In this document: piece by piece, positions 2,479 through 39,960 of the stretch | How the letters are laid out: each line of letters starts with the position of its first letter | Numbering within the stretch: the stretch's first letter is position 1 | From: a virus | Strand: one strand, 5' to 3' | Virus record (IMG/VR): IMGVR_UViG_3300045988_142085 | Coordinates: 64,001 to 128,000 of that record | DNA length: 64,000 nt | The notes under the pieces: generated by a model | Seen by the model: only the letters and a program-made list of their open reading frames with translations | Told to the model about the DNA's origin: nothing | The model's database searches: none | Program-made: the position numbers and the translations under genes

Positions 2479-3416
2479 ACAGCTACCTCGAAAGGAATTT
2501 TACCGCTATGCTCATAGTCTTCGAGAATTAAATCATCGATTTTAAAATCGTAAAAGCTTTTTACACGAGATTTAATTTCGACTTTTGGAGCATAATGGCT
2601 TCTATTTCCGACTTGAATAAATGCACCACGCAAATGATTTTCATAAACATGGGCATCGTTAATCATGATCGTAAACAAACCTGGTTTAAGATCACAGGTT
2701 TGCGCCATGAGTAATAATAGGAACGCATATTGGGCCATATTATATGGTAAGCCTACTAATGTATCGGAGCTACGAATATTTAATAATAAATTAAGTTTTC
2801 CGTTAGTGACATTCCATTCAGTTAAGAATGCACAAGGCTGCAATGCCATATTATTTAAATCTTCGACGTTCCATAGACTAACTACCATACGACGACTATC
2901 TTTATTAAAATGAAGATCGTAGATTAATTTATCGACTTGATTCATATAGATTTCTCCATTTTTACCGAGTCGATAATTTTTAATTTTACCTTCTTTTTTT
3001 AACTTAGCTACGTTTTCAGCTAATACGTCAAAATATTTATATTCTTTTCCTAGCTGATAACCGTAAGCTAAACCGATAGTACCGTCTTTACGTTCCCATT
3101 CATCCCAAATGGTAACATTATATTTACTACGTAATATTTCAACACTATTACTTTGATCTTGCCAGATCCACAGCATTTCTTTAATAGCTGTTTTAAGTCC
3201 GACAAATTTTGTCGTTAATAAAGGAAATTCATCTTCGAGATCGAATTGAAGCATCTTATGCGGTAAGCTAAAAGCATTAACACCGGTACGATTTTCTTTT
3301 AATTCGCCTTTTTCGATGATTTCACTGATCAACGGAATATACTGCCCGTCGGCTTCGTTCCGATAATCTTTATTAACGTCTTTAATAGTTTTAATTAATT
3401 GTTTAATGAAGCCCAC
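2475..3416 (-). CDS. thyA: thymidylate synthase (long Gram-positive type with insert)
   Basis: Contains NRTGV..FPLLTTK, VTIWDEW, DSRRMVVSLWNV and RSSD..GLPYNMAQYA (Asn, giving dUMP specificity). The catalytic Cys is present but the active-site motif reads QPCAF rather than PCH. Confidence 0.85.
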   Translation of the reverse strand: MGFIKQLIKTIKDVNKDYRNEADGQYIPLISEIIEKGELKENRTGVNAFSLPHKMLQFDLEDEFPLLTTKFVGLKTAIKEMLWIWQDQSNSVEILRSKYNVTIWDEWERKDGTIGLAYGYQLGKEYKYFDVLAENVAKLKKEGKIKNYRLGKNGEIYMNQVDKLIYDLHFNKDSRRMVVSLWNVEDLNNMALQPCAFLTEWNVTNGKLNLLLNIRSSDTLVGLPYNMAQYAFLLLLMAQTCDLKPGLFTIMINDAHVYENHLRGAFIQVGNRSHYAPKVEIKSRVKSFYDFKIDDLILEDYEHSGKIPFEVAV

Positions 3417-6077
3417 TTAGTCAACTCCAAAATTATTTAACACAAGATTCTTTCTAGCTTCCGAATCTTTCCCCATGATATCAGATACCATCTTAGCACA
3501 CTTTTCAGCGTCTTCGATAGTAATCTTATATAAATGTCTTTTCTTAGGATCCAAGGTAGATTCCCATAATTGATCGGGATTCATTTCTCCTAATCCTTTT
3601 ATATATTGCACATGCCATTGGTCTTTTTCTTTATATTTAGCTAGCTCTTCTTTCGTATAGATATATTTATGACTATTGCCTTTAACAAGTCTAAACAAAG
3701 GAGGAGCAGCTGCATAAATATAACCGTTCTCGATTAATTCTCGATAATGATTATAGAAGAACGTAGCCCAAAGGCAAATAATATGAGCCCCGTCGTCCGA
3801 CCGTACCCTCGGTTTCCCGATACTTCATAAAGGGACTAGACTATATTTTTATCCGTTCTGGATAGCACCTCTATAGTCGTTACACATTTACGATATTTTT
3901 TTAATATCGACTTAGCACGGTATTGCCATTGCTAGCCATTTCTGGCCCATCAGGTTCTCTTGATTATAGGAGCGCCTTCGCACATAATGTCTTATTCAAC
4001 TCCAACCGTAAGCATATTATTAGTTAATATACACCGCCTTGATAGCGTTAGGGTGCTTGTAATCTCTTGCATTCCTGCAAGGACGACTAATTTTTATTAA
4101 TCAGCATCTGACATTACGACAATCTTGTTATATTTTAAATCTTCGATATTGAATGATTTATCGATGCCGCAACCTAATGCGTTAACAAGGTCTAATAGTT
4201 TGTCAGACGTAACAGTACCGCCATTCTTTTCAGTATTCATTACTTTACCGAAAATAGGTAGCACAGCTTGATATTCGGGGTCACGTGCTTGCTTACTAGA
4301 GCCTCCGGCAGAATCTTAAGAGATATTTGTTTGGACTATATCTTACTTGTTAAAGCAAGTCCTACCGTTTCGATTTTTTAAAAATCTACTCTACTCAGTT
4401 CATATATATACTATATGCTTTTCGATAGTCTCTGAACGCGTTACAGATATCCGTTTTTTTTCCGTTCTGTAATTTCGCTGCGGATAATTTATAGTTTTGA
4501 CAATGTTACTATACCTAAGCCATTACGCTTTGCCATTATTATATCACTATAATAATTTAGTTGCCAATACTAATTTAAACTTCCCCGCAATTAGATAGGT
4601 TTAACGAGAGCGATTCTGTCTTTTACCCTCGACAATAAACAGTTCGCATTTTTTAGGGTCGTCACTATGACAATCGCTAAGTTTTTCTACGACAGTAGAT
4701 TTTAATGCTTTTTTCTGTTTACGTGCATTTTCTCTTGCCTTTTTAGCATCGAGTCTAGCTTTAATACTAAGATTAATTTTACTAGTCAATTGCTTAGCAA
4801 AAGTTTTTTTCTTTTTGAGCTCTTCTCCGAAAGACTCGGAAATTAATTCTTTAACTTGATCTCGAATCTCGGGCATCTGTAAATATAGTTTATTTTGACC
4901 TTCGAATTTTGGTTCGATAGTCTTAATATTTACGATAGCTACAAGACCTTCGATCGCATCGTCTTGTGTTAAATCTTTAATATTTAACTCTTTTAATGCT
5001 TGTACTATACCAGCTTTAAACCCATTTAAATGATCGCCGCCGTTTAAAGTATTGATATTATTTACAAACGTTAAAATCGTATTAGAATATAATCCATCAC
5101 AATAATTTAATACGACATGAACAGATGTATTATCTTTTTCTCCTTTAAATTCTAACGCTTTACCGATAGTTTCTTTAGGAGTAATATCTTTTAGATAATC
5201 TAAAAGAGTCGAAGATTTTAAGTTTACCCATTCTTCGCCTAAATTATATTTGATGGTAAGACCTTCGTTAAGATAACTTAACTGCTTAAGTTTCTTTTCG
5301 AGATCTTTAATATTAATAGGATCTGGATAGATTTCAGGATCTAATCGATATTCAATACGGGTACCCGTCTTTTTGGACTTTCGTCCTTTTTTAAGTTCTT
5401 GACTTAAGATACCTTTTTTAAAGCCAATAGACCATTCATATCCATCACGCCATACTGTGGCATTAAAATATTCGGAAACCGCATTAACGCAAGAACTCCC
5501 AACCAAAATCTTCAATAAAGAACGCTACTTCTTTATCAGTTCTCTTATGAACTTCTTTATGTTTCCATAAAGTTGAGACTATATCTTCTTAGACTTCCAC
5601 TTCGAGCACCAATAACTTGTGCCCTACTCCCTTACGGGATAGTCGTTGAACTTTATATATATACTTTTTAATATATATCTTAGCTGCTGATTACCCGCCC
5701 ATACGGGCTTTCCAGCAATTCAAAAGTTTTTACAACGGCATTTATTTACCGTTTAAGCCACCAGTAGCAGAGACCTGTCCGCTAAGTGAAACGAATTTTC
5801 CTCCAGCATGCAAAGAGCCTACCGCCAATTGTATTTGAGGAATGCCATATTTTTCATTAAGTGCGACTGGGATACCACGACCTTCGTCAGTGATAATCAT
5901 TACTTGAGTTTCGGGATTGTATTCTACAGTTATACATTTACCGAACCCAGTAACGAATTCGTCGACAGCATTGTCGATAATTTCGTGAGCACAATGATTT
6001 GGGCCATTCAAGTACATTTCTTTTCGTAGTCGAACATTGTCCGGATATTCGAGTACTAAAATTTCTTGTTCAGCCAT
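3417..6077 (-). CDS. gyrB: Type II topoisomerase ATPase subunit (GyrB/T4 gp39-like), split into 4 exons by three ORF-less group I-like introns. Approximate exons: 5748-6077, 4625-5503, 4101-4315, 3417-3797.
   Basis: Exon 1 carries the GHKL ATPase motifs (EIIDNAVDE, GRGIPV, LHAGGKF, TGGLNG). Exon 2 runs VGSSCVNAVS...ELFIVEG. Exon 3, translated by hand, reads DSAGGSSKQARDPEYQAVLPIFGKVMN...MSDAD (Toprim). Exon 4 reads DGAHII..YIYAAAPPLF...GLGEMNPDQLWESTLDP. Collinear GyrB homology resumes after each gap. Confidence 0.8.
3798..4100 (-). ncRNA. putative group I intron 3 in gyrB (~300 nt, no ORF)
   Basis: Interrupts DAD|DGAHI. Contains acGACTATAgagg...aaATATAGTCtag. Boundaries approximate. Confidence 0.55.
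4316..4624 (-). ncRNA. putative group I intron 2 in gyrB (~309 nt, no ORF)
   Basis: Interrupts IVEG|DSAGG. The 5' junction GGT|AAAAG is the same as in intron 1, and it has the same GACTAT...ATATAGTC candidate P7. Confidence 0.6.
5504..5747 (-). ncRNA. putative group I intron 1 in gyrB (~244 nt, no ORF)
   Basis: The exon ends on U (GGT|AAA) and the intron ends on G (..GATTTTG|GTT). An internal candidate P7 pairing is acgGACTATccc...agATATAGTCtc. Boundaries are good to about 3 nt. Confidence 0.6.
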
Positions 6078-6457
6078 TAATATACGTGGTCCTCATCTGC
6101 AATTAAATCATAATATCGATATAATAATGCACGAACTGTTTCATTAATAGATTCGTGTAGGCTAACATCTTTATTTAAAGTTACCTCTGCTTTAAATTTT
6201 CTAGGTTTAACAATTAAACCATTAGATGTAGTTAGCATATCGACACGTCCATGTCTACCAGAAATACCAATTCTAAATACGAATTGGAACAGTCGTCCAT
6301 CATAATCGACTTGATATGGTGTACCATATTTTTGTTTAGATAAAGCTTCGCCGACGTGGCCGGCAATATTATCTAAATCACTTTTAAGCTCTTGCTCTTT
6401 TTTAATAGCATCTTCCCAGGCTTTAATTCCCTGGTCGATATTATCTAAATAATCCAT
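6077..6457 (-). CDS. hypothetical protein (126 aa)
   Basis: ORF whose stop overlaps the gyrB start (ATGA). Confidence 0.6.
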   Translation of the reverse strand: MDYLDNIDQGIKAWEDAIKKEQELKSDLDNIAGHVGEALSKQKYGTPYQVDYDGRLFQFVFRIGISGRHGRVDMLTTSNGLIVKPRKFKAEVTLNKDVSLHESINETVRALLYRYYDLIADEDHVY

Positions 6458-7007: not shown

Positions 7008-7916
7008 TTATGCTTTAAGAACAGATAAGATGGCTTCGATATTATAACGATTCAATTGCTTAACATCGTTTAATACGCCGCCAGACAATGCTTCCATAGC
7101 TTCTACGATTTGCTCGTCGCTGTAGCGATTAATTTCTTCACGCAAATCTAAGTAGTGAGCTAAGTAATCTAAGTAATACGGAGTAATATTAGACAAAGAA
7201 ACTTGATTTCTATCTTCGTCTTCAAGAATTTCGTCGAGATATCCTTGTAGTACTTTTTGATTCCCAGCATCTTCTTTAACAAATGTTTTTACTTTAGCAA
7301 TTTGACCAGCGAGATCTTTAGCGATTTGTGTCGTCATTTCATCTTCGCGTTTATATTTACTAACGTAGCAATCGAGCTGGCGCTCGTCGAATTTAAGAGC
7401 TTCGACAACTTCAGGATCGGCTTCATCTTTTTCTTCGAGCTCAGCTGTTTCTTCAGCAAAAGATTTAAAACCGTTATCGGCTTCATAGTCTACGTCTTCA
7501 GAACCCAATAATTCCATTGGAGATGCAACTTCGATAGGATTGCCGTCAAAATCAGTAACCGGAATTTCTTCCTTTACTTCTTCTGCAGAAGCTGGTTCTT
7601 TAATAATGACTTTTGGCTCTTCAGCTTCAATAGCAACTGGTTTACTTTCAGGTTCTTCCTTGACCAATTCAGCTTTGGGCTTCCGGCCACGCTTTTTAGG
7701 TTTTTCTTCTTTTACTTCCTCAACCTTATCGGTTGCTTCAGCTTTCCCAGCTACTTCATGTTTTACAGCATGAGCGTCGAGAGAAGAAATAATACCACTG
7801 TTATACATATCCAACAATAATTTACTGGATGCTGTATTAAAAGTGGCAGGATCTTCGTCTAACAGACGTTTAGCAATGACCAATAAATGATCAAATGCTT
7901 TTTCAGTGTAATTCAA
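7008..7916 (-). CDS. hypothetical acidic protein (302 aa)
   Basis: Long ORF with a central Glu/Lys/Pro-rich low-complexity region. Confidence 0.6.
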   Translation of the reverse strand: MNYTEKAFDHLLVIAKRLLDEDPATFNTASSKLLLDMYNSGIISSLDAHAVKHEVAGKAEATDKVEEVKEEKPKKRGRKPKAELVKEEPESKPVAIEAEEPKVIIKEPASAEEVKEEIPVTDFDGNPIEVASPMELLGSEDVDYEADNGFKSFAEETAELEEKDEADPEVVEALKFDERQLDCYVSKYKREDEMTTQIAKDLAGQIAKVKTFVKEDAGNQKVLQGYLDEILEDEDRNQVSLSNITPYYLDYLAHYLDLREEINRYSDEQIVEAMEALSGGVLNDVKQLNRYNIEAILSVLKA

Positions 7917-10776
7917 TTACTTTGCCTCCTTATTTAAATAATATGAATATTTATTATTAACATCTTCCGAAGTAATACGAATTTCTTTCGTATTCTCATC
8001 GATGTCGAATAATTTATCGTCGACTAAACCTTGTACGACGCTTTTAAGTGCACGAGCACCTGTTTTTCGATCGTAGGCAAGTTTAGCAATAGTATCGACA
8101 GTATCGTCATCGAAAGTAATTTCGATATCATACATGCCGATCAATTCTTTAATTTGTTTAAAGATTGCGTGTTTTGGAGTCGTTAAAATTTGTTTTAAGT
8201 CTTCCACACTCAATTCTTTAAGCGGGCAAATTACTGGTAATCGACCTAATAATTCTGGAATAATACCAAAGTTATCGAGATCTTCAGGTAAGATATAATC
8301 GATTACGTCGTTATACTTAGATTTTTCTTCCAATACGTCTTTAGATGCTTCACTAGAGAAACCGAGGCCCGTATCTAAATCTTTATTTAACCTTGCCGCA
8401 ATCTTCTTTTCAATACCGGTAAATGCACCACCACAAATAAATAAAATATTAGTAGTATCAATTTCAACAGTAGGAGATGACATAGCAAATCCACCTTGTT
8501 GATCGTTAGACTTAATAGCGACTTTGCCGCCTTCAACGAGTTTTAATAACTCATATTGTACGTCACGACCACCGATATCACTACCTTGAGAGCCAGCATT
8601 TTTAGGATCTCGAGCAGCAATTTTATCGATTTCATCGATATAGACAATACCTTGTTGAGTTCGTTCGACATCGTTACCGGCTTCACGGTATAGTTTGGCT
8701 AAGATGCTATTAACGTCTTCACCAACGACAATTTGTTACCCTATAGGCTTTTTATCCTATAGCTCTTACAGTTACCTGTAAGTTCAGCGTACATTTTTTC
8801 AGTAAAAATATTATACAAACTGAAGTGATCACTCTTGGGAATATTTTATTCTTATCATTAAGGTTCAATTCCTACGCGTTACGGTGTCAAAAGCCTTTTA
8901 AAACTTTTGATTACCTCGGTATTTTCCACATGGGTGCTTCACCGATTTTGATCACTTTAATTACTCTGACTTATTTGTACTTTCATCAGAGAGGGCTCGT
9001 TTTAAAGATAAATATCTTTTCATTTTTCTATCGAGAAAAATAGAAGCATTAGAATATAAATAATCATAAAAAGATAATGTTAAATTTTTCTTATAAAGAA
9101 CTAATTTTTTATATGTGATATAATCATCTATTTTAAATTCAAAATTTGACAGTATTTGATTAATTGATTCTGCTAATAAAGAAGAACCAACAACTATAAC
9201 TGTTTGAATTTTTTTTATATTTTTAGTGATATATCCATTTCCATCAAAATATCCACGGATAAAACTTGAAATAAGATTTTCTTTTATATTTGGCATAAAA
9301 GCATTTTCTGTTTTATTATAAACTACACCTAATTTAAATAAATCTTCTACTAATTCTTTTGACACAATAGATACAACAGATGTTTTTCTATTTTTTCTAT
9401 GCTTAATTTCTAAATTTTTGGCGCCAATATCATTAATAAATTTATTTAAATGGTTATCATCAACAGAGCTTAACTCAATTGATAATCTATTTTTATAAAC
9501 ATTACCATCAGCCATAATAAAACCCAGCCAATATGCTTGTTTTTCTGACTCTATTTCCTTAAAAAAACTTTTATCAAACGTTACATTAGGTCTTTTATAA
9601 GTAAATCTCATATTAACATTTTTCTTTTTTAAGTATGCTGAAAATGATTTAACAGAAATTTTTAATTGTTCTGCTACTTTATACATAGGAATATTTTCTT
9701 CTACATATAGTCTTAATCCTTCAACATATCTAGGATCTTCTATTTCAAAATGGACATTTTTTTTAATTTCTATTCCATTTCGTTTAAAATATCTTCTTAA
9801 AGAACCTACATCTACATTATATTTTTTTGCTAAAGTAGAAGTAGATACTCCTTTATTTTCAGTATATTCTTTTATTGCTTTTTTATATTTATCTTCATTT
9901 TTATATCGTGTCATATTATGACCCTCCTTATGGTCATAATTATATTACACAATATATTTGTCTGTCAACCCCGATTTGGTGAGACTACTTGCATCGACAA
10001 TAACACATGGTCGACCAAGATATTTTGCTAATTGTTTAATTAAGAATGTTTTCAGTTGTGTTATCGTAAAAGTTTTTTATCTTCTACTTCTTATAGTTTC
10101 CTATAAGCTCAGCATACCTTTTTAGCGTATATTTTTTTACCAAACGCTAGAGCGGCCTCGTGGTAGAATTATATTCTTATTTTAAAAATAAGGTTCATCT
10201 ACTATGCGTTGCCCCTGACTAGAATATTATTTCTAGCCTTCGGTTCAGATTAGCATATGCACTTTATGCACTTAGCCTTCCTGCTTAATTCCGCTCAAAT
10301 AATCCAGAAGTTCATGGTTTTTTCTTCTAGAACGGCAAACTTTTACAGCCACCGCAACCCGAGGACCCCAGCATTAATATATTTGATTTCTCAACATCGA
10401 TTCCAACATCTTTTTTCTTAAACGCATTATATTCGAGAAGCTTAGTATGATTAGTAATCGCGACACTAAGAATTTTCTTAGCGTTATCCTGATTGATTAC
10501 ACTTTCATCCAAGTAGGCTTTAATTTCTTTAGGCTTAACATCAGACTTTTGAACTTTAGAAGATTTTTTCTTTTTAGGTTTTTCATCGTCTTCACCATCT
10601 AAAGATAAGCCTAAGATGTCATCGATATCAAAATCACCTTCATCGTCTTGAACTTGAGATGCCATTTTCATGACGCATTCTTGACAAATAGCGATATTTT
10701 TATTAACGGAAGACTGAAAAGTAATATTGTGACTTTTTTGATCGTCGATATCTTTACCGCAATAACTACATTTCAT
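7917..10776 (-). CDS. clpX: ClpX ATP-dependent protease ATPase subunit, split into 3 exons by two introns. Approximate exons: 10351-10776, 9969-10052, 7917-8735.
   Basis: Exon 1 has the zinc-ribbon start MKCSYCGK and ..KSNILMLGSSGCG. Exon 2 (hand translation) reads KTFLIKQLAKYLGRPCVIVDASSLTKSG, completing the Walker A. Exon 3 reads (Q)IVVGEDVNSILAKLYREAGNDVERTQQGIVYIDEIDKIA...NILFICGGAF...GARALKSVV. Confidence 0.8.
8736..9968 (-). mobile_element. group I intron B in clpX carrying a LAGLIDADG homing endonuclease gene
   Basis: A free-standing ORF with its own RBS (aaggaggg) sits inside the gap between clpX exons 2 and 3. It is flanked by ~50 nt and ~225 nt of non-coding intron sequence. Confidence 0.7.
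8961..9914 (-). CDS. LAGLIDADG-family homing endonuclease (317 aa) with N-terminal helix-turn-helix-like region
   Basis: Two LAGLIDADG motifs: WLGFIMADGNV and IRGYFDGNGYI. Confidence 0.8.
   Translation of the reverse strand: MTRYKNEDKYKKAIKEYTENKGVSTSTLAKKYNVDVGSLRRYFKRNGIEIKKNVHFEIEDPRYVEGLRLYVEENIPMYKVAEQLKISVKSFSAYLKKKNVNMRFTYKRPNVTFDKSFFKEIESEKQAYWLGFIMADGNVYKNRLSIELSSVDDNHLNKFINDIGAKNLEIKHRKNRKTSVVSIVSKELVEDLFKLGVVYNKTENAFMPNIKENLISSFIRGYFDGNGYITKNIKKIQTVIVVGSSLLAESINQILSNFEFKIDDYITYKKLVLYKKNLTLSFYDYLYSNASIFLDRKMKRYLSLKRALSDESTNKSE
10053..10350 (-). ncRNA. putative group I intron A in clpX (~298 nt, no ORF), inserted in the Walker A codons
   Basis: The exon-1 frame runs into a stop right after GSSGCG. 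Collinear ClpX sequence resumes at 10052, preceded by an intron-terminal G (..cacaactg|aaaaca). Its 3' end resembles the 3' end of intron B (gctgagcttataggaaactataag versus gctgaacttacaggtaactgtaag). Confidence 0.55.
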
Positions 10777-10777
10777 A

Positions 10778-11350
10778 TTACTTTTTCTCCTTCGCTTTAA
10801 TGATTTCGTCGATAAGACCCATATCGAGAGCCTGTTGAGCTTCTAGATAATTATCGCGTTCACATGCTTCATGAATTTGTTCGTAGGTAATTTTACCGTT
10901 AGATTTCTCAGCATATTTACGTTCCAACTTTTCGCGTAAGCGCTCAATATGTTTAGCGACAATCTGAATATCGGTCTGTTGACCTTGTACACCAGTTAAT
11001 GGCTGATGAATCATAACTTCGGTGTTTTCGAGAACACTTCGTTTGTCGCCCATACTCAATAAAAAGCTAGCCATACTAGCACACATGCCCATACCGACAG
11101 TATGAACTGGACAATTAATGGTACGCATAGTATCGTAAATTGCCATACCGGCCGTAATACTGCCACCAGGACTATTAATATATAGTTTAATAGGCTTACG
11201 ACTACTTTCGTTCGCTAAATATAACATTGCAGGAACGACAAAGTTAGCTAATTCGTCATTAATTTGGCCCGTGATAAATAACACACGGTCTTCTAAAAGT
11301 TTATCGAAAAGGTTTACGCGAACACCTTCAGAATCTTTAATTACGGACAC
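10778..11350 (-). CDS. clpP: ClpP serine protease subunit
   Basis: 190 aa with GMCASMAS (Ser), MIHQP (His) and the ClpP fold pattern. It lies immediately downstream of clpX exon 1. Confidence 0.85.
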   Translation of the reverse strand: MSVIKDSEGVRVNLFDKLLEDRVLFITGQINDELANFVVPAMLYLANESSRKPIKLYINSPGGSITAGMAIYDTMRTINCPVHTVGMGMCASMASFLLSMGDKRSVLENTEVMIHQPLTGVQGQQTDIQIVAKHIERLREKLERKYAEKSNGKITYEQIHEACERDNYLEAQQALDMGLIDEIIKAKEKK

Positions 11351-12017
11351 GTCCTACCTCCTCAAAATTATTATTTAAAATAGTTTTTACAGCGAATACG
11401 ATCTTTTTAAATGTCGACATATTTTCTGTAAAAATAATAGCTTTATATCGCACTACTTCTTTTTGTTCAGGAGTAGCGACAGCTTCTTTTACTTTTTTAG
11501 CAGCTTTTTGTTTTTGTTCTTGATAATCGGTTTGTTTATTTTTACGTTTTTCAAGAACTTTGGCAATCTTTTCTGCACGAACTGCATCAGAATCTTTTTT
11601 AATCTTATTAGCAGACGCTTCGATTAACTTTAATTCAAGTTCGGTAAACAACTCAGATTCTACAAGTAACTTTTTAGTTCTTGGTCGTAAAATACCGATA
11701 CCACTTAAAAATAATTGCTGTACGTTACTATCGCTAAAACCGGCTACACGAATAGTCGTTTTAAGATTATTATTATAATCTTGATTAATTAATATCCATA
11801 GTTTAGCAATACTAACAGCACTTAAATTATTCCATTCTTTACACCAAGGATATTTCTTATAGCTCTCTTGAGCGATCATAGCACTAAAGCTAGAATAGGA
11901 TTCTTTAGACCAATCTAGTTTAGTAAGATCTTTAATCCTTGTGTAAAACTTAGAGATTCTTTCTTCTCGTTCACCGAACAAGATTACAGCACCTTGTTCT
12001 ATAATATTTGAACGCAT
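11337..12017 (-). CDS. hypothetical protein (226 aa)
   Basis: ORF in the co-directional array. Confidence 0.55.
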   Translation of the reverse strand: MRSNIIEQGAVILFGEREERISKFYTRIKDLTKLDWSKESYSSFSAMIAQESYKKYPWCKEWNNLSAVSIAKLWILINQDYNNNLKTTIRVAGFSDSNVQQLFLSGIGILRPRTKKLLVESELFTELELKLIEASANKIKKDSDAVRAEKIAKVLEKRKNKQTDYQEQKQKAAKKVKEAVATPEQKEVVRYKAIIFTENMSTFKKIVFAVKTILNNNFEEVGRVRN

Positions 12018-38787: not shown

Positions 38788-39960
38788 TATTAAGCATAAA
38801 CAAAGTTGGCCCATTTTAAAAATGCTCCAAACCCTTACTCACGTAATCTGCTGTGAAGATAAACAACTCGCAGAGGATCGTACACGAATAACCGTTTAAC
38901 GTATTCGGGCCTTAGCCCTCGATACTACTTTATATATAATATATATATAATTATTCTAATATTATTTAAAGATTTAAATAAGCGTCACTATTATTATCTA
39001 AATATAATAATTTATTTTAATATAATTAAAAAACCGTTCGCCTAAAATATTCGGTGTTCATTCTCTCTATCCATAACACCTAGTAAAAGAGGTAACAGTA
39101 TAACGCCGGAACCAGAGCAATAAAATTCCAGCTAACTGGTTAGAGCTTTCAAACTCTAACAACTTGGAATGATTAGTACTCGATAATAATTGTATCCTAA
39201 TAATTAATATTAATTATTATAAATTAATCTCGCACTAAGCAGAGCCTTCGTCACGAACTATAACACAGAAAATTGTAATTACGCTACGCTAATACAACCA
39301 GCCAACTTCGCTGCGCTATCTTTCTCTGGATCGGATCAAGACATTCTTTTATAATATATATAATTTAATAAAAGAATCAAAAGGGATTCGCCACCTAATA
39401 TAACCTTCGCCCCTAAATTAAATCCGGGGTCTCAGAACATATATTCCTTCGGAAATAGCCGGCGGCTCAAAATAATTGAATTATTTAAATCCAATTATAA
39501 TCACTGTTGCTCACCTAATTGAATAACTAGCAATAGTGTCCTATATAATATATATACTAATACTTAATTAATAATATACTTCATATATTATTATTAATAA
39601 CTAACATTACTTTTAAATAAAAAGTAATACAAAATACATATGGGGGGCGAAAAATATTCGAAATTTTATAACCTAAAGTTTCAGATTTTTCAGCCCGGAT
39701 TTTCGCTTTTATATATAGTACGACATAGTATACCGCTCACGGTCGTCCTCGCTAACGCTCGTTCCTTACCTACAGCTCAGTCGCAAGCTCCTTTCGCTTT
39801 CGGGATGCGTTTGCTATACGGCCCTCCGGGCCTCCATTATACTATACATATAGATAGCTTAAGGCAGGCGCTTTAATCGGTCGCTCCCGCTCCCTCTTCG
39901 CTTCTTTATCTAACCTATCTATATCCTTACGGATCGTAGCTAAAAGCTTAATACTAATAA

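What the first reader, a model, noticed from the sequence alone, without database searches (positions are those of the whole stretch)
7917..10776. Phage clpX interrupted in the Walker A codons by an intron plus a second HE-carrying intron; adjacent phage clpP
Exon 1 stops right after GSSGCG. A 28-codon micro-exon (KTFLIKQLAKYLGRPCVIVDASSLTKSG) lies ~300 nt downstream. A 1.2-kb insert containing a LAGLIDADG endonuclease follows, and then the rest of ClpX. The two intron 3' ends share a ~45-nt similar hairpin region. A phage-encoded ClpXP pair is itself uncommon.
Basis: partly seen in the sequence, partly recalled or inferred. Interest (0 to 1): 0.7.

Follow-up and report, generated by a model that had tools for sequence, protein, structure and literature searches.

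The report
Two self-splicing introns split phage clpX
A large phage's clpX protease-ATPase gene is cut into three pieces by two related self-splicing group I introns, one carrying a homing endonuclease, which is a clear but ordinary example of a known kind of mobile element that the standard RNA database fails to recognise.

Summary
On the minus strand, clpX is exon 1 (10776-10351), a 298-nt intron (10350-10053), an 85-nt micro-exon (10052-9968), a 1239-nt intron (9967-8729) holding a 317-aa LAGLIDADG endonuclease gene, and exon 3 (8728-7917). The joined product is a 440-aa protein that passes both NCBIfam ClpX equivalog cut-offs. clpP lies directly upstream.

Both inserts are paralogous subgroup-IA group I introns. 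Each has U at the 5' splice site, a terminal G, P1 and P10 guide pairings, and a P2-P9.1 core with the P3/P7 pseudoknot. Covariation supports this fold across 110 distinct relatives.

Thirty-five related phage contigs carry every state: intronless, either intron, both, and with or without the endonuclease gene. The inserts are absent exactly at the predicted junctions. Intron-linked exon haplotypes point to homing.

Rfam finds neither intron. The same ribozyme family does occur in the Lactobacillus phage JCL1032 terminase intron and in many Firmicutes phages.

Splicing itself is inferred, because no transcript data were available. This is a new member of a known kind, of modest interest.

The parts
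10778..11350 (-). clpP, 190 aa, uninterrupted in this window. It ends one base before the clpX ATG.
   Evidence: Pfam CLP_protease 1.5e-62 over 7-181 of 182 positions. The best NCBIfam hits are ATP-dependent ClpP models but fall below cut-off, 229.7 against 249 bits. It is adjacent to clpX in every relative that holds the upstream DNA.
10351..10776 (-). clpX exon 1 (codons 1-142). It holds the zinc-finger cysteines CSYC and CQEC and the first half of Walker A (GSSGCG). Its last base is U.
10053..10350 (-). [quoted passage not shown] Elements: P10/P1 guide 10340-10332, P2 10331-10303, P3 10296-10291 with 10155-10150, P4 10283-10280 with 10249-10246, P6 10243-10214, P7 10209-10203 with 10116-10111, P7.1 10202-10163, P8 10149-10123, P9 10107-10090 (GAAA loop), P9.1 10087-10066, terminal G at 10053.
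   Evidence: Fold and covariation. Helix coordinates. P1 (GCGGU paired with GCCGU). R1 scores it 125.8 bits. The insert is absent precisely in intronless alleles. The longer forms in relatives (about 400 nt, and 1.5 kb with a 385-aa LAGLIDADG ORF) show it is an ORF-deletion derivative.
9968..10052 (-). clpX exon 2: an 85-nt micro-exon covering codons 143-170 plus the first base of codon 171. It supplies the K-T of Walker A.
   Evidence: Against the intronless allele L001 it has 17 nucleotide differences and no amino-acid change.
8729..9967 (-). Intron 2: a 1239-nt group I intron inserted after the first base of the Phe171 codon, in the pore-1 loop (G-F-V-G). The endonuclease gene sits in the P1 loop.
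   Evidence: (329 bits)
9939..9968 (-). Promoter-like site for the endonuclease gene: TTGACA-18-TATAAT, 12 of 12 consensus matches. The first T is the last base of exon 2.
   Evidence: It is the only 12/12 match in 7800-11500. Both hexamers are conserved across relatives while the spacers vary. Function is inferred.
9918..9937 (-). Hairpin AUGACC-AUAAGGAG-GGUCAU presenting or partly sequestering the ribosome-binding site, 3 nt before the endonuclease ATG.
   Evidence: Fold z-score -3.25. Sub-threshold Rfam cow-rumen-4 match, 29.1 bits.
8961..9914 (-). LAGLIDADG homing endonuclease gene, 317 aa: N-terminal helix-turn-helix repeats followed by two LAGLIDADG motifs (YWLGFIMADG and FIRGYFDGNG). 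Its last 41 nt (9001-8961) overlap the P10/P1 guide and P2 of the ribozyme.
   Evidence: Pfam LAGLIDADG_3 6.7e-11 and LAGLIDADG_WhiA 5.9e-06. PHROG 4645 at 2e-49. The ORF is intact at 81-91% identity in 6 relatives. It is 34% identical to the site-1 endonuclease. Overlap coordinates.
8729..9001 (-). Ribozyme core of intron 2. Elements: P10 guide 9001-8997, P1 guide 8996-8992, P2 8991-8964, P3 8955-8949 with 8831-8825, P4 8945-8940 with 8921-8916, P6 8915-8883, P7 8879-8873 with 8791-8786, P7.1 8872-8838, P8 8824-8798, P9 8782-8765 (GUAA loop), P9.1 8762-8741, terminal G at 8729.
   Evidence: ORF-less forms of 278-284 nt in 8 relatives consist of exactly this core plus a loop of about 10 nt.
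7917..8728 (-). clpX exon 3 (rest of codon 171 to the stop). It holds the pore-1 loop VG, Walker B (VYIDEIDK), the LGF ClpP-docking loop and sensor-2 (GARAL).
   Evidence: Against L001 it has 44 nucleotide differences and 2 amino-acid changes.

Best explanation
The phage clpX gene carries two paralogous subgroup-IA group I introns.

**Splicing (inferred).** After transcription of the clpP-clpX operon, each intron folds into the group I core. Its internal guide sequence pairs with the end of the upstream exon, giving P1 with a U.G wobble at the cleavage site. A free guanosine cleaves there. The terminal G of the intron then enters the G-binding pocket in P7. The guide also pairs with the start of the next exon (P10), and the exons are ligated. 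Two such reactions join three exons into one mRNA for a complete 440-aa ClpX, which works with the adjacent ClpP.

**Mobility (inferred).** Intron 2 also carries, in its P1 loop, a LAGLIDADG homing endonuclease gene with its own promoter-like site and ribosome-binding-site hairpin. In a mixed infection the enzyme would cut an intronless clpX allele at the pore-1-loop codons. Repair from the intron-bearing genome would copy in the intron together with a short tract of flanking exon. Intron 1 is a derivative of a sister intron whose own LAGLIDADG gene, 34% identical, has been deleted. It is now passive unless a co-infecting relative supplies that enzyme.

**Shown:** the gene anatomy, the RNA fold by covariation, the exact presence/absence polymorphism, the intron-linked exon haplotypes, and purifying selection in the spliced frame.

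**Inferred:** catalysis, endonuclease activity and its target, promoter use.
For: 1. **The spliced product is a complete ClpX.** It aligns without gaps across both junctions to solved ClpX and passes two NCBIfam equivalog cut-offs.

2. **Splice-site rules hold.** All 27 intron copies at the two sites follow a U and end in G. P1 has the U.G wobble in every copy.

3. **P10 covaries with the downstream exon.** Exon TCGTT goes with guide AACGA, and exon TTGTT goes with guide AACAA.

4. **The fold is supported by covariation.**
   - RNAalifold independently recovers P2, P3, P4, P5, P6, P8, P9 and P9.1 for site 2. For site 1 it recovers P2, P3, a P5 hairpin, P6, P7.1, P8, P9 and P9.1.
   - On the MAFFT alignment A3 the full structure with the P7 pseudoknot is 99.1% paired. 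Ten pairs show compensatory change, and 0 of 500 shuffles reach the observed covariation score.
   - On 110 distinct family members it is 95.3% paired, with compensatory change in 62 of 67 pairs.
   - P7 was left out of the model, yet it is 100% paired, covaries at 3 pairs, and has an invariant G-C pair after a bulged base.

5. **There are links to accepted group I introns.**
   - The family HMM hits the Lactobacillus phage JCL1032 terminase intron, annotated as a joined CDS, at E 7.7e-18. The covariance model scores it at 123.6 bits.
   - The same model also hits the Rfam-certified group I intron in this window's topoisomerase gene at 31.9 bits, E 1.3e-5.

6. **The population data fit a mobile intron.** Among the window and 35 relatives, 12 are intronless, 8 have site 1 only, 10 have site 2 only, and 5 have both. 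One contig starts inside intron 2, so its site 1 is unknown. Forms with and without the endonuclease ORF both occur, and the inserts are absent exactly at the predicted junctions.

7. **The exons are under selection in the spliced frame.** All 13 reconstructed spliced CDSs are intact. Substitutions in exons 2 and 3 are almost all synonymous.

8. **There are signatures of homing.**
   - Nucleotide diversity peaks at the two insertion sites (0.21 and 0.145, against roughly 0.02-0.10 elsewhere).
   - All site-2 intron-bearing alleles in the 98%-identity clade share one flanking exon haplotype. All intronless alleles carry a different, synonymous one.

9. **The endonuclease looks functional.** Both LAGLIDADG motifs are intact in 14 copies. 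A 12/12 promoter consensus is conserved at the intron's 5' end.
Against: - Rfam's group I model RF00028 gives no hit to either intron even at E<=10. It also misses 17 other family members at E<=0.1.
- No transcript, cDNA or biochemical data exist for this phage, so splicing is inferred.
- P1 of the site-1 intron is short. It has 3 Watson-Crick pairs and 2 wobbles here, and only 3 pairs in relatives whose exon ends CGGGU.
- Alignment A4 was fitted to the model's structure, which inflates pair counts for every helix except P7.
Confidence: 0.9

Rival explanations
1. The gene is split or decaying. A free-standing homing endonuclease gene and junk DNA have been inserted into clpX with no RNA splicing. 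The fragments are non-functional or act as separate polypeptides.
For: There is no Rfam intron hit and no expression data. ORF callers would report separate fragments of 149 aa and 188 aa.
Against: The inserts fold into a covarying group I core with correct splice-site nucleotides and guide pairings. Exons 2 and 3 remain under strong purifying selection in the spliced frame: 17 nucleotide changes with 0 amino-acid changes, and 44 with 2. Neither the 28-codon micro-exon nor the start of exon 3 (8728-8484) has a start codon of its own. The same inserts are kept in many otherwise intact genomes of 170-230 kb.
Confidence: 0.03
2. The inserts are removed by a different mechanism: group II intron splicing, protein splicing by an intein, or translational bypass.
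For: LAGLIDADG domains also occur in inteins. The weak NCBIfam hits of the ORF are to intein-bearing proteins.
Against: The endonuclease ORF is not fused in frame to ClpX, and stop codons follow exon 1 after 7 codons. There is no reverse transcriptase and no group II hit. Inserts of 298 and 1239 nt are far beyond known bypass gaps. The RNA has the group I pseudoknotted core.
Confidence: 0.01
3. They are group I introns but do not self-splice autonomously. Efficient splicing, especially of ORF-less intron 1 with its weak P1, would need a protein cofactor such as maturase activity of the LAGLIDADG protein or a host chaperone.
For: P1 at site 1 is short and wobble-rich. A LAGLIDADG maturase is documented for a Thermotoga group I intron, and T4 introns are helped by StpA and S12 (review PMC3984707).
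Against: ORF-less copies persist alone in genomes that carry no copy of the cognate endonuclease within the clpX locus. Examples are L014, L015, L020 and L032-34 for site 2, and L023 and L027 for site 1. The core helices are complete.
Confidence: 0.1

Closest known systems
Group I intron in the large-terminase gene of Lactobacillus delbrueckii phages JCL1032 and LL-H
   Same: It belongs to the same ribozyme family. The core HMM hits it at E 7.7e-18 over model positions 46-276, and R1 scores it 123.6 bits. It has the same order of P1-P9.1, the same P7 sequence (GCAUA/UAUGC), the CCACGAG junction, a GAUAAAAAG P9.1 loop and a GAUAACA...G tail. The JCL1032 CDS is annotated as a join. In vivo splicing of the LL-H intron is from my own recollection of Mikkonen & Alatossava 1995, which I did not read here.
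   Different: The host gene differs (terL, not clpX). The JCL1032 copy has no ORF inside. The host range is different.
B. cereus-group prophage introns TMP-IVS1/IVS2 and TMP-IVS3/term-IVS1 (Tourasse & Kolsto 2008, PMC2504315)
   Same: These are homologous introns sitting at different sites of one phage gene, with P1 and the guide sequence re-adapted to each site. Similar ribozymes carry different endonuclease genes or none. The paper's Table 3 lists a JCL1032 intron among the BLASTN relatives of term-IVS1, and the paper files term-IVS1 and TMP-IVS3 as subgroup IA1.
   Different: Those elements are in tape-measure and terminase genes of temperate phages and carry GIY-YIG or HNH genes. Here both sites carry paralogous LAGLIDADG genes, and the target is an AAA+ ATPase.
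T4 td intron with I-TevI, and Staphylococcus phage Twort orf142 with three introns (own knowledge; Twort ribozyme crystal structure cited in PMC3984707)
   Same: These are phage subgroup-IA introns in conserved coding genes. The endonuclease ORF is looped out of the ribozyme and expressed from its own signals. One gene can hold several introns.
   Different: The T4 and Twort cores are recognised by standard models. In T4 the ORFs sit in P6a or P9.1 loops and encode GIY-YIG or HNH enzymes. Here the ORF is in the P1 loop, overlaps P10, P1 and P2, and encodes a LAGLIDADG enzyme.
Unannotated members in Staphylococcus phage 6ec and C. difficile phage phiCD211 tape-measure genes, C. perfringens phiCP39-O, and Streptococcus prophage Javan355
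   Same: They show 70-79% nucleotide identity over the core and score 113-163 bits with R1. An endonuclease ORF lies 5' of the core in 6ec and Javan355. In phiCD211 the intron sits in tandem with a second intron.
   Different: The genes and endonuclease families differ (HNH in 6ec). None of these is annotated as an intron of this family in the records.
PhiPA3 gp210 intron endonuclease (PMC11620839)
   Same: It is a jumbo-phage intron-encoded homing endonuclease that targets an essential gene of related co-infecting phages.
   Different: That case has experimental evidence for a competitive benefit. Here that role is only a possibility.

Membership tests
Group I intron | The 5' splice site follows a U that forms a U.G wobble with the internal guide sequence in P1 | tested here: met
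   All 27 copies follow ...GGT or ...GGGGT. The guide is GCCGU at site 1 and GCCCU at site 2, and both start with the G opposite that U.
Group I intron | The last intron nucleotide is G (omega-G) | tested here: met
   All copies end ...CUG or ...UUG.
Group I intron | P10 pairing between the guide sequence and the start of the 3' exon | tested here: met
   At site 2 there are 4-5 pairs, with covariation between exon and intron: TCGTT with AACGA, and TTGTT with AACAA. At site 1 the pairing is weaker, about 3 pairs.
Group I intron | Core helices P3-P8, P4-P6 and P7-P9 in canonical order, with the P3/P7 pseudoknot | tested here: met
   On A3: 99.1% paired, 10 compensatory pairs, 0 of 500 shuffles reach the covariation score. 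On A4: 95.3% paired, with compensatory change in 62 of 67 pairs. P7 was not in the model and is 100% paired.
Group I intron | Guanosine-binding site: a conserved G-C pair in P7 next to a bulged nucleotide | tested here: met
   The G-C pair at A4 columns 339 and 521 is invariant in 102 of 102 sequences, and column 338 is unpaired. Binding itself cannot be tested with these tools.
Group I intron | Match to the curated covariance model Rfam RF00028 | tested here: not met
   There is no hit at E<=1 or E<=10, and none in 17 other family members. The same scan does find the topoisomerase intron in this window at 94 bits. My family model cross-hits that intron at 31.9 bits. The literature notes that the Rfam and GISSD models are incomplete for phage introns (PMC11878797).
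Group I intron | Guanosine-dependent self-splicing | not testable with these tools
   This needs in vitro transcription and splicing, or cDNA from infected cells.
Group I intron, subgroup IA | Extra hairpin(s) P7.1/P7.2 between the 5' strand of P7 and the 3' strand of P3 | tested here: met
   There is a two-tier hairpin at 10202-10163 in intron 1 and 8872-8838 in intron 2, and it covaries. Assignment to IA1 rests on homology to introns so classified in PMC2504315. GISSD subgroup models were not available.
LAGLIDADG homing endonuclease | Two LAGLIDADG motifs, each with the catalytic acidic residue, in one chain | tested here: met
   The motifs are YWLGFIMADG and FIRGYFDGNG. Pfam LAGLIDADG_3 matches two stretches at 6.7e-11. 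Both motifs are conserved in 14 copies.
LAGLIDADG homing endonuclease | Cleaves the intronless allele at or near the insertion site and drives homing with exon co-conversion | tested here: inconclusive
   Support is indirect: intron-linked flanking exon haplotypes and diversity peaks at both sites. Cleavage was not testable.
ClpX | Full-length match above curated equivalog cut-offs, with Walker A and B, pore-1 loop, ClpP-docking loop and N-terminal zinc finger | tested here: met
   NF003745 scores 398 against 359 bits and TIGR00382 scores 372.3 against 370.75 bits. Motifs: CSYC and CQEC, GSSGCGKT at 137-144, GFVG at 170-173, VYIDEIDK at 199-206, GLGF at 291-294, GARAL at 394-398.
ClpP (ATP-dependent protease subunit, as opposed to a ClpP-like prohead protease) | Score above a curated ClpP cut-off | tested here: inconclusive
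   Pfam CLP_protease scores 211 bits. The best NCBIfam ClpP model scores 229.7 bits, below its cut-off of 249. The head-maturation model scores 116.6 bits, below its cut-off of 120. Operon linkage to clpX favours a true ClpP.
IStron (group I intron fused to an IS200/605 element) | TnpA and/or TnpB genes inside the intron | tested here: not met
   Neither clpX intron holds a transposase ORF. An IStron-like insert does occur in clpP of some relatives.
Intein | Endonuclease domain fused in frame within the host protein | tested here: not met
   The ORF has its own start and ribosome-binding site, and stop codons separate it from the clpX exons.

The most novel reading that the evidence does not exclude
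The clpP-clpX operon of this lineage of roughly 170-230-kb phages from human-associated samples may be a recurrent landing pad for several kinds of self-splicing selfish elements. These would be two paralogous LAGLIDADG introns aimed at the Walker A and pore-1-loop codons of clpX, and an IStron-like element in clpP of relatives. The endonucleases may act as weapons between co-infecting relatives, as shown for PhiPA3 gp210, by cutting the competitor's ClpXP genes. That would imply the phage's own ClpXP is essential for its replication. A weaker version is already largely shown: this ribozyme family is abundant in phages and invisible to Rfam, so many 'split' phage genes are mis-annotated.
Probability: 0.2. 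Interest if true: 0.55.

Novelty: new member of a known kind. Interest (0 to 1): 0.3.

Why it matters
- **Annotation.** Without the intron model, clpX would be called as two or three fragments plus an 'endonuclease'. The standard check (Rfam RF00028) fails for this whole ribozyme family.
- **Evolution.** The 36 alleles form a natural series covering invasion, endonuclease-gene decay, ORF loss and intronless (possibly resistant) states at two sites 85 nt apart. Co-conversion tracts are visible. This is useful material for studying the homing cycle in uncultured phages.
- **Enzymes.** It supplies two new, diverged LAGLIDADG enzymes whose targets can be predicted: the Walker A and pore-1-loop codons of an AAA+ ATPase.
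- **Limit.** It does not change what is known about how group I introns or ClpXP work.

Tried and rejected
- **Rfam scans** of the region at E<=1 and of intron 1 alone at E<=10 gave no group I hit. They returned only a sub-threshold cow-rumen-4 match on the endonuclease leader and chance hits.
- **Megablast** of the region, and blastn of a structural gene, against 50,697 phage genomes found no close isolate.
- **Scan of one genome per bacterial species** with the spliced ClpX returned only cellular ClpX at 38-45% identity, all uninterrupted. This gave no host clue and no cellular copy of these introns.
- **Literature search** for a clpX intron in phages found nothing relevant.
- **Hand-folding P4/P5 of intron 1** was ambiguous. 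A copy of the same family in the topoisomerase gene of relatives, and L039, showed compensatory changes: CAGG with UCUG, CGGG with UCCG, and CUGG with UCAG.
- **RNAalifold's pairing** of the site-1 guide sequence with GGUA near P7 was rejected as an artefact of its inability to form the P7 pseudoknot.
- **Other mechanisms considered and rejected:** intein, group II intron, IStron, translational bypass, and a pseudogene split by a free-standing endonuclease gene (see rivals and membership tests).
Full report
**1. Anatomy**

Every gene in the region is on the minus strand.

- An ORF starting at 10776 encodes a zinc-finger N-domain and runs into a Walker A motif...NILMLGSSGCG. It stops 7 codons later.
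- From 10052, 298 nt downstream, an 85-nt stretch encodes KTFLIKQLAKYLGRPCVIVDASSLTKSG.
- After a further 1239 nt, the frame resumes at 8728 with (F)VGEDVNSILAKLY... and runs to the stop at 7917.
- Joining 10776-10351, 10052-9968 and 8728-7917 gives a 1323-nt CDS encoding 440 aa.

That protein aligns to solved ClpX structures (best 9ndj, E 6.5e-79) with no gap at either junction: GSSGCG|KTFL against GPTGSGKTLL, and TKSG|FVGEDV against TEAGYVGEDV. It exceeds both NCBIfam ClpX equivalog cut-offs. It has every ClpX hallmark: CxxC...CxxC, Walker A and B, pore-1 loop GFVG, an LGF docking loop, and sensor-2.

A 190-aa ClpP gene (Pfam 1.5e-62) ends one base upstream of the clpX start.

The long insert holds a 317-aa ORF (9914-8961) with two LAGLIDADG motifs.

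**2. What the inserts are**

Rfam finds nothing in either insert, even at E<=10. It does find a canonical group I intron elsewhere in the window, at 5555-5780, 94 bits, inside a topoisomerase II gene. I therefore folded the inserts by hand and then tested the fold against relatives.

Both inserts begin after a U and end in G. Each has a guide sequence whose first G faces that U:
- Intron 1: exon GCGGU pairs with guide GCCGU.
- Intron 2: exon GGGGU pairs with guide GCCCU.

The guide is followed in order by P2, P3, P4-P5, P6, the 5' strand of P7, a two-tier P7.1 hairpin, the 3' strand of P3, P8, the 3' strand of P7, P9 with a GNRA loop, P9.1, and a short tail ending in G. This is the subgroup-IA group I layout.

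**3. Relatives and the presence/absence test**

A scan of IMG/VR with the spliced protein returned 35 contigs whose ClpX is 68-99% identical. Many of these contigs are 170-230 kb. tblastn and boundary extraction give the following states:

| State | Contigs |
|---|---|
| Intronless | 12 |
| Site 1 only | 8 (six with a 385-aa LAGLIDADG ORF, two of about 400 nt without it) |
| Site 2 only | 10 (four with the ORF, six ORF-less at 278-284 nt) |
| Both sites | 4, plus the window |
| Unknown at site 1 | 1 (contig starts inside intron 2) |

In intronless alleles the sequence reads straight through (...GGC|AAG... or ...GGT|AAA...), so the inserts are absent to the nucleotide.

The ORF-less site-2 introns read UGACAnACGA-GCCCU-CUCUGA.... 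This confirms that the endonuclease gene lies in the P1 loop. Its last codons double as the P10/P1 guide and P2.

The 400-nt site-1 forms keep a decayed promoter and ribosome-binding-site leader but have lost the ORF body. The window's 298-nt form has lost everything between the first 14 nt and the guide sequence.

**4. Covariation**

- RNAalifold on MAFFT alignments of each site independently returns most of the nested helices, with compensatory changes.
- My full structure for site 2, including the P7 pseudoknot, is 99.1% paired. Ten pairs change on both sides, against 31-42% paired when the partners are slid by 1-3 columns. No shuffle out of 500 reaches the observed covariation score.
- A covariance model built from the site-2 alignment, with P7 deliberately left out, found 120 matches in 100 sources.
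- On that alignment (110 distinct sequences) the structure is 95.3% paired, with compensatory changes in 62 of 67 pairs.
- The unmodelled P7 helix is 100% paired. It covaries at three positions and has an invariant G-C pair after a bulged base, which is the expected guanosine-binding site.
- P10 also covaries between intron and exon.

**5. Link to known introns**

blastn of the cores against isolated phages hits 74-97 records, mostly Staphylococcus, Bacillus, Clostridium/Clostridioides and Streptococcus phages.

- In Staphylococcus phage 6ec and Streptococcus prophage Javan355 the match lies between two tape-measure fragments, just after an HNH or 'homing endonuclease' gene.
- In C. difficile phiCD211 it lies between 'minor tail protein' and 'tape measure', next to a second, annotated Intron_gpI.
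- The family HMM matches the intron of the joined terminase CDS of Lactobacillus phage JCL1032 at E 7.7e-18.

Tourasse & Kolsto (PMC2504315) list a JCL1032 intron among the relatives of term-IVS1. They classify term-IVS1 and TMP-IVS3 as IA1, and describe homologous introns adapting to two sites of one gene by changing P1.

My model also weakly recognises the Rfam-certified topoisomerase intron of this window (31.9 bits, E 1.3e-5).

Rfam misses all 17 other family members tested. This fits published remarks that the Rfam and GISSD models under-represent phage introns (PMC11878797).

**6. Evidence that the gene is expressed through splicing and that the introns move**

- All 13 reconstructed 1323-nt CDSs from the 98%-identity clade are intact.
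- Between the window and the intronless allele L001, exon 2 has 17 nucleotide differences and no amino-acid change. Exon 3 has 44 differences and 2 changes.
- Nucleotide diversity peaks exactly at the two insertion sites, although these encode the most conserved motifs.
- At site 2, all intron-bearing alleles in this clade share the flank AGTAGTCTCACCAA[A/G]TCGGGGT|T[C/T]GTTGGTGAAGA. Every intronless allele carries the synonymous flank TCAAGTTTAACAAAAAGTGGGT|TCGTnGGnGAAGAT. This is the pattern expected from exon co-conversion during homing, from endonuclease-resistant intronless alleles, or from both.
- The two endonucleases are 34% identical paralogues. They are intact in 14 copies, with both catalytic motifs conserved.
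- The window's endonuclease gene is preceded by the only 12/12 sigma-70 consensus in the region, TTGACA-18-TATAAT at 9968-9939. Its first base is the last base of exon 2. The hexamers are conserved in relatives while the spacers vary.
- A hairpin holding the ribosome-binding site follows.

**7. Verdict**

Two paralogous subgroup-IA group I introns interrupt phage clpX, one at the Walker A G|K codons and one inside the pore-1-loop Phe codon. One retains its LAGLIDADG homing endonuclease gene and the other has lost it.

Splicing and homing are inferred from sequence. They were not observed.

Multiple homologous introns in one phage gene, looped-out endonuclease genes with their own promoters, and homing-cycle polymorphism are all established phenomena. 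The new elements are:
- the host gene (I found no report of an intron in clpX);
- the LAGLIDADG type, which is uncommon in phage introns (PMC3984707; 1 case in PMC11878797);
- the P1-loop placement with ORF-ribozyme overlap;
- the demonstration that this abundant ribozyme family escapes Rfam.

Phage ClpX itself is uncommon but known, mainly in jumbo phages (208 of 50,697 records). No cellular ClpX is closer than about 45% identity, and the host remains unknown.

Noticed in passing
window 5526-5780 (-), within a topoisomerase II large-subunit gene (ORFs 6077-6457 and 4601-5515): A canonical group I intron recognised by Rfam (RF00028, 94 bits) splits the topoisomerase gene. Relatives L001 and L002 lack it. 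L019, L005, L003 and L004 carry an intron of the clpX site-1 family about 17 nt upstream of that site; in L019 this is in addition to the Rfam-type intron.
   Followed up: partly
L025 1520-3720 (also L006, L010, L026; a shorter insert of about 1.9 kb in L012, L022, L024): In these relatives clpP itself is split after ...SGFAIYD. The insert has classical group I R and S boxes (GGTTCAACGACTAGA ... AAGATATAGTC). It also holds IS200 TnpA (Y1_Tnp 4.8e-40) and TnpB (OrfB_IS605 8.4e-28). This is an IStron-like architecture. Rfam gave no hit, and the window's clpP is intact.
   Followed up: partly
window 19780-20991 (-) and 21028-21266: A 403-aa TnpB/Cas12f-like ORF (OrfB_IS605 7.6e-22, Cas12f1-like TNB 1.1e-9) is preceded by three degenerate 35-nt direct repeats. 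On the minus strand they read GTTTTAGAGCTGTATAGTTTGATACAGTACTAAAA and variants, with spacings of 66 and 138 nt. They resemble type II CRISPR repeats.
   Followed up: partly
window 21440-21760 (-): The non-coding stretch upstream of the repeats contains pieces resembling the intron family (a P3-like ATTGCGG...ACCGCAA and GAATATAAT). The covariance model gives only 11.4 bits, E 0.26. It may be a decayed or divergent ribozyme.
   Followed up: no
window 38792-38962 (-): An Rfam OTKONC RNA (RF03053) match at 170 bits, above the gathering score. No paper in the library mentions the name.
   Followed up: no
window 9917-9963 (-): A sub-threshold match to the Rfam cow-rumen-4 RNA (29.1 against 48.5 bits) covers the -10 box and ribosome-binding-site hairpin of the endonuclease gene. 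That Rfam motif may be, at least in part, a leader of homing-endonuclease genes.
   Followed up: no
L090, L173, L101 (IMG/VR contigs): Single contigs carry three to seven copies or fragments of this ribozyme family within a few kb. Some phage genes appear to be heavily colonised.
   Followed up: no
L081 (phiCD211) 2767-3032: The record's own 'Intron_gpI' feature was not recovered by the Rfam 15 scan at E<=1. The current scan therefore misses even a previously annotated phage intron.
   Followed up: no
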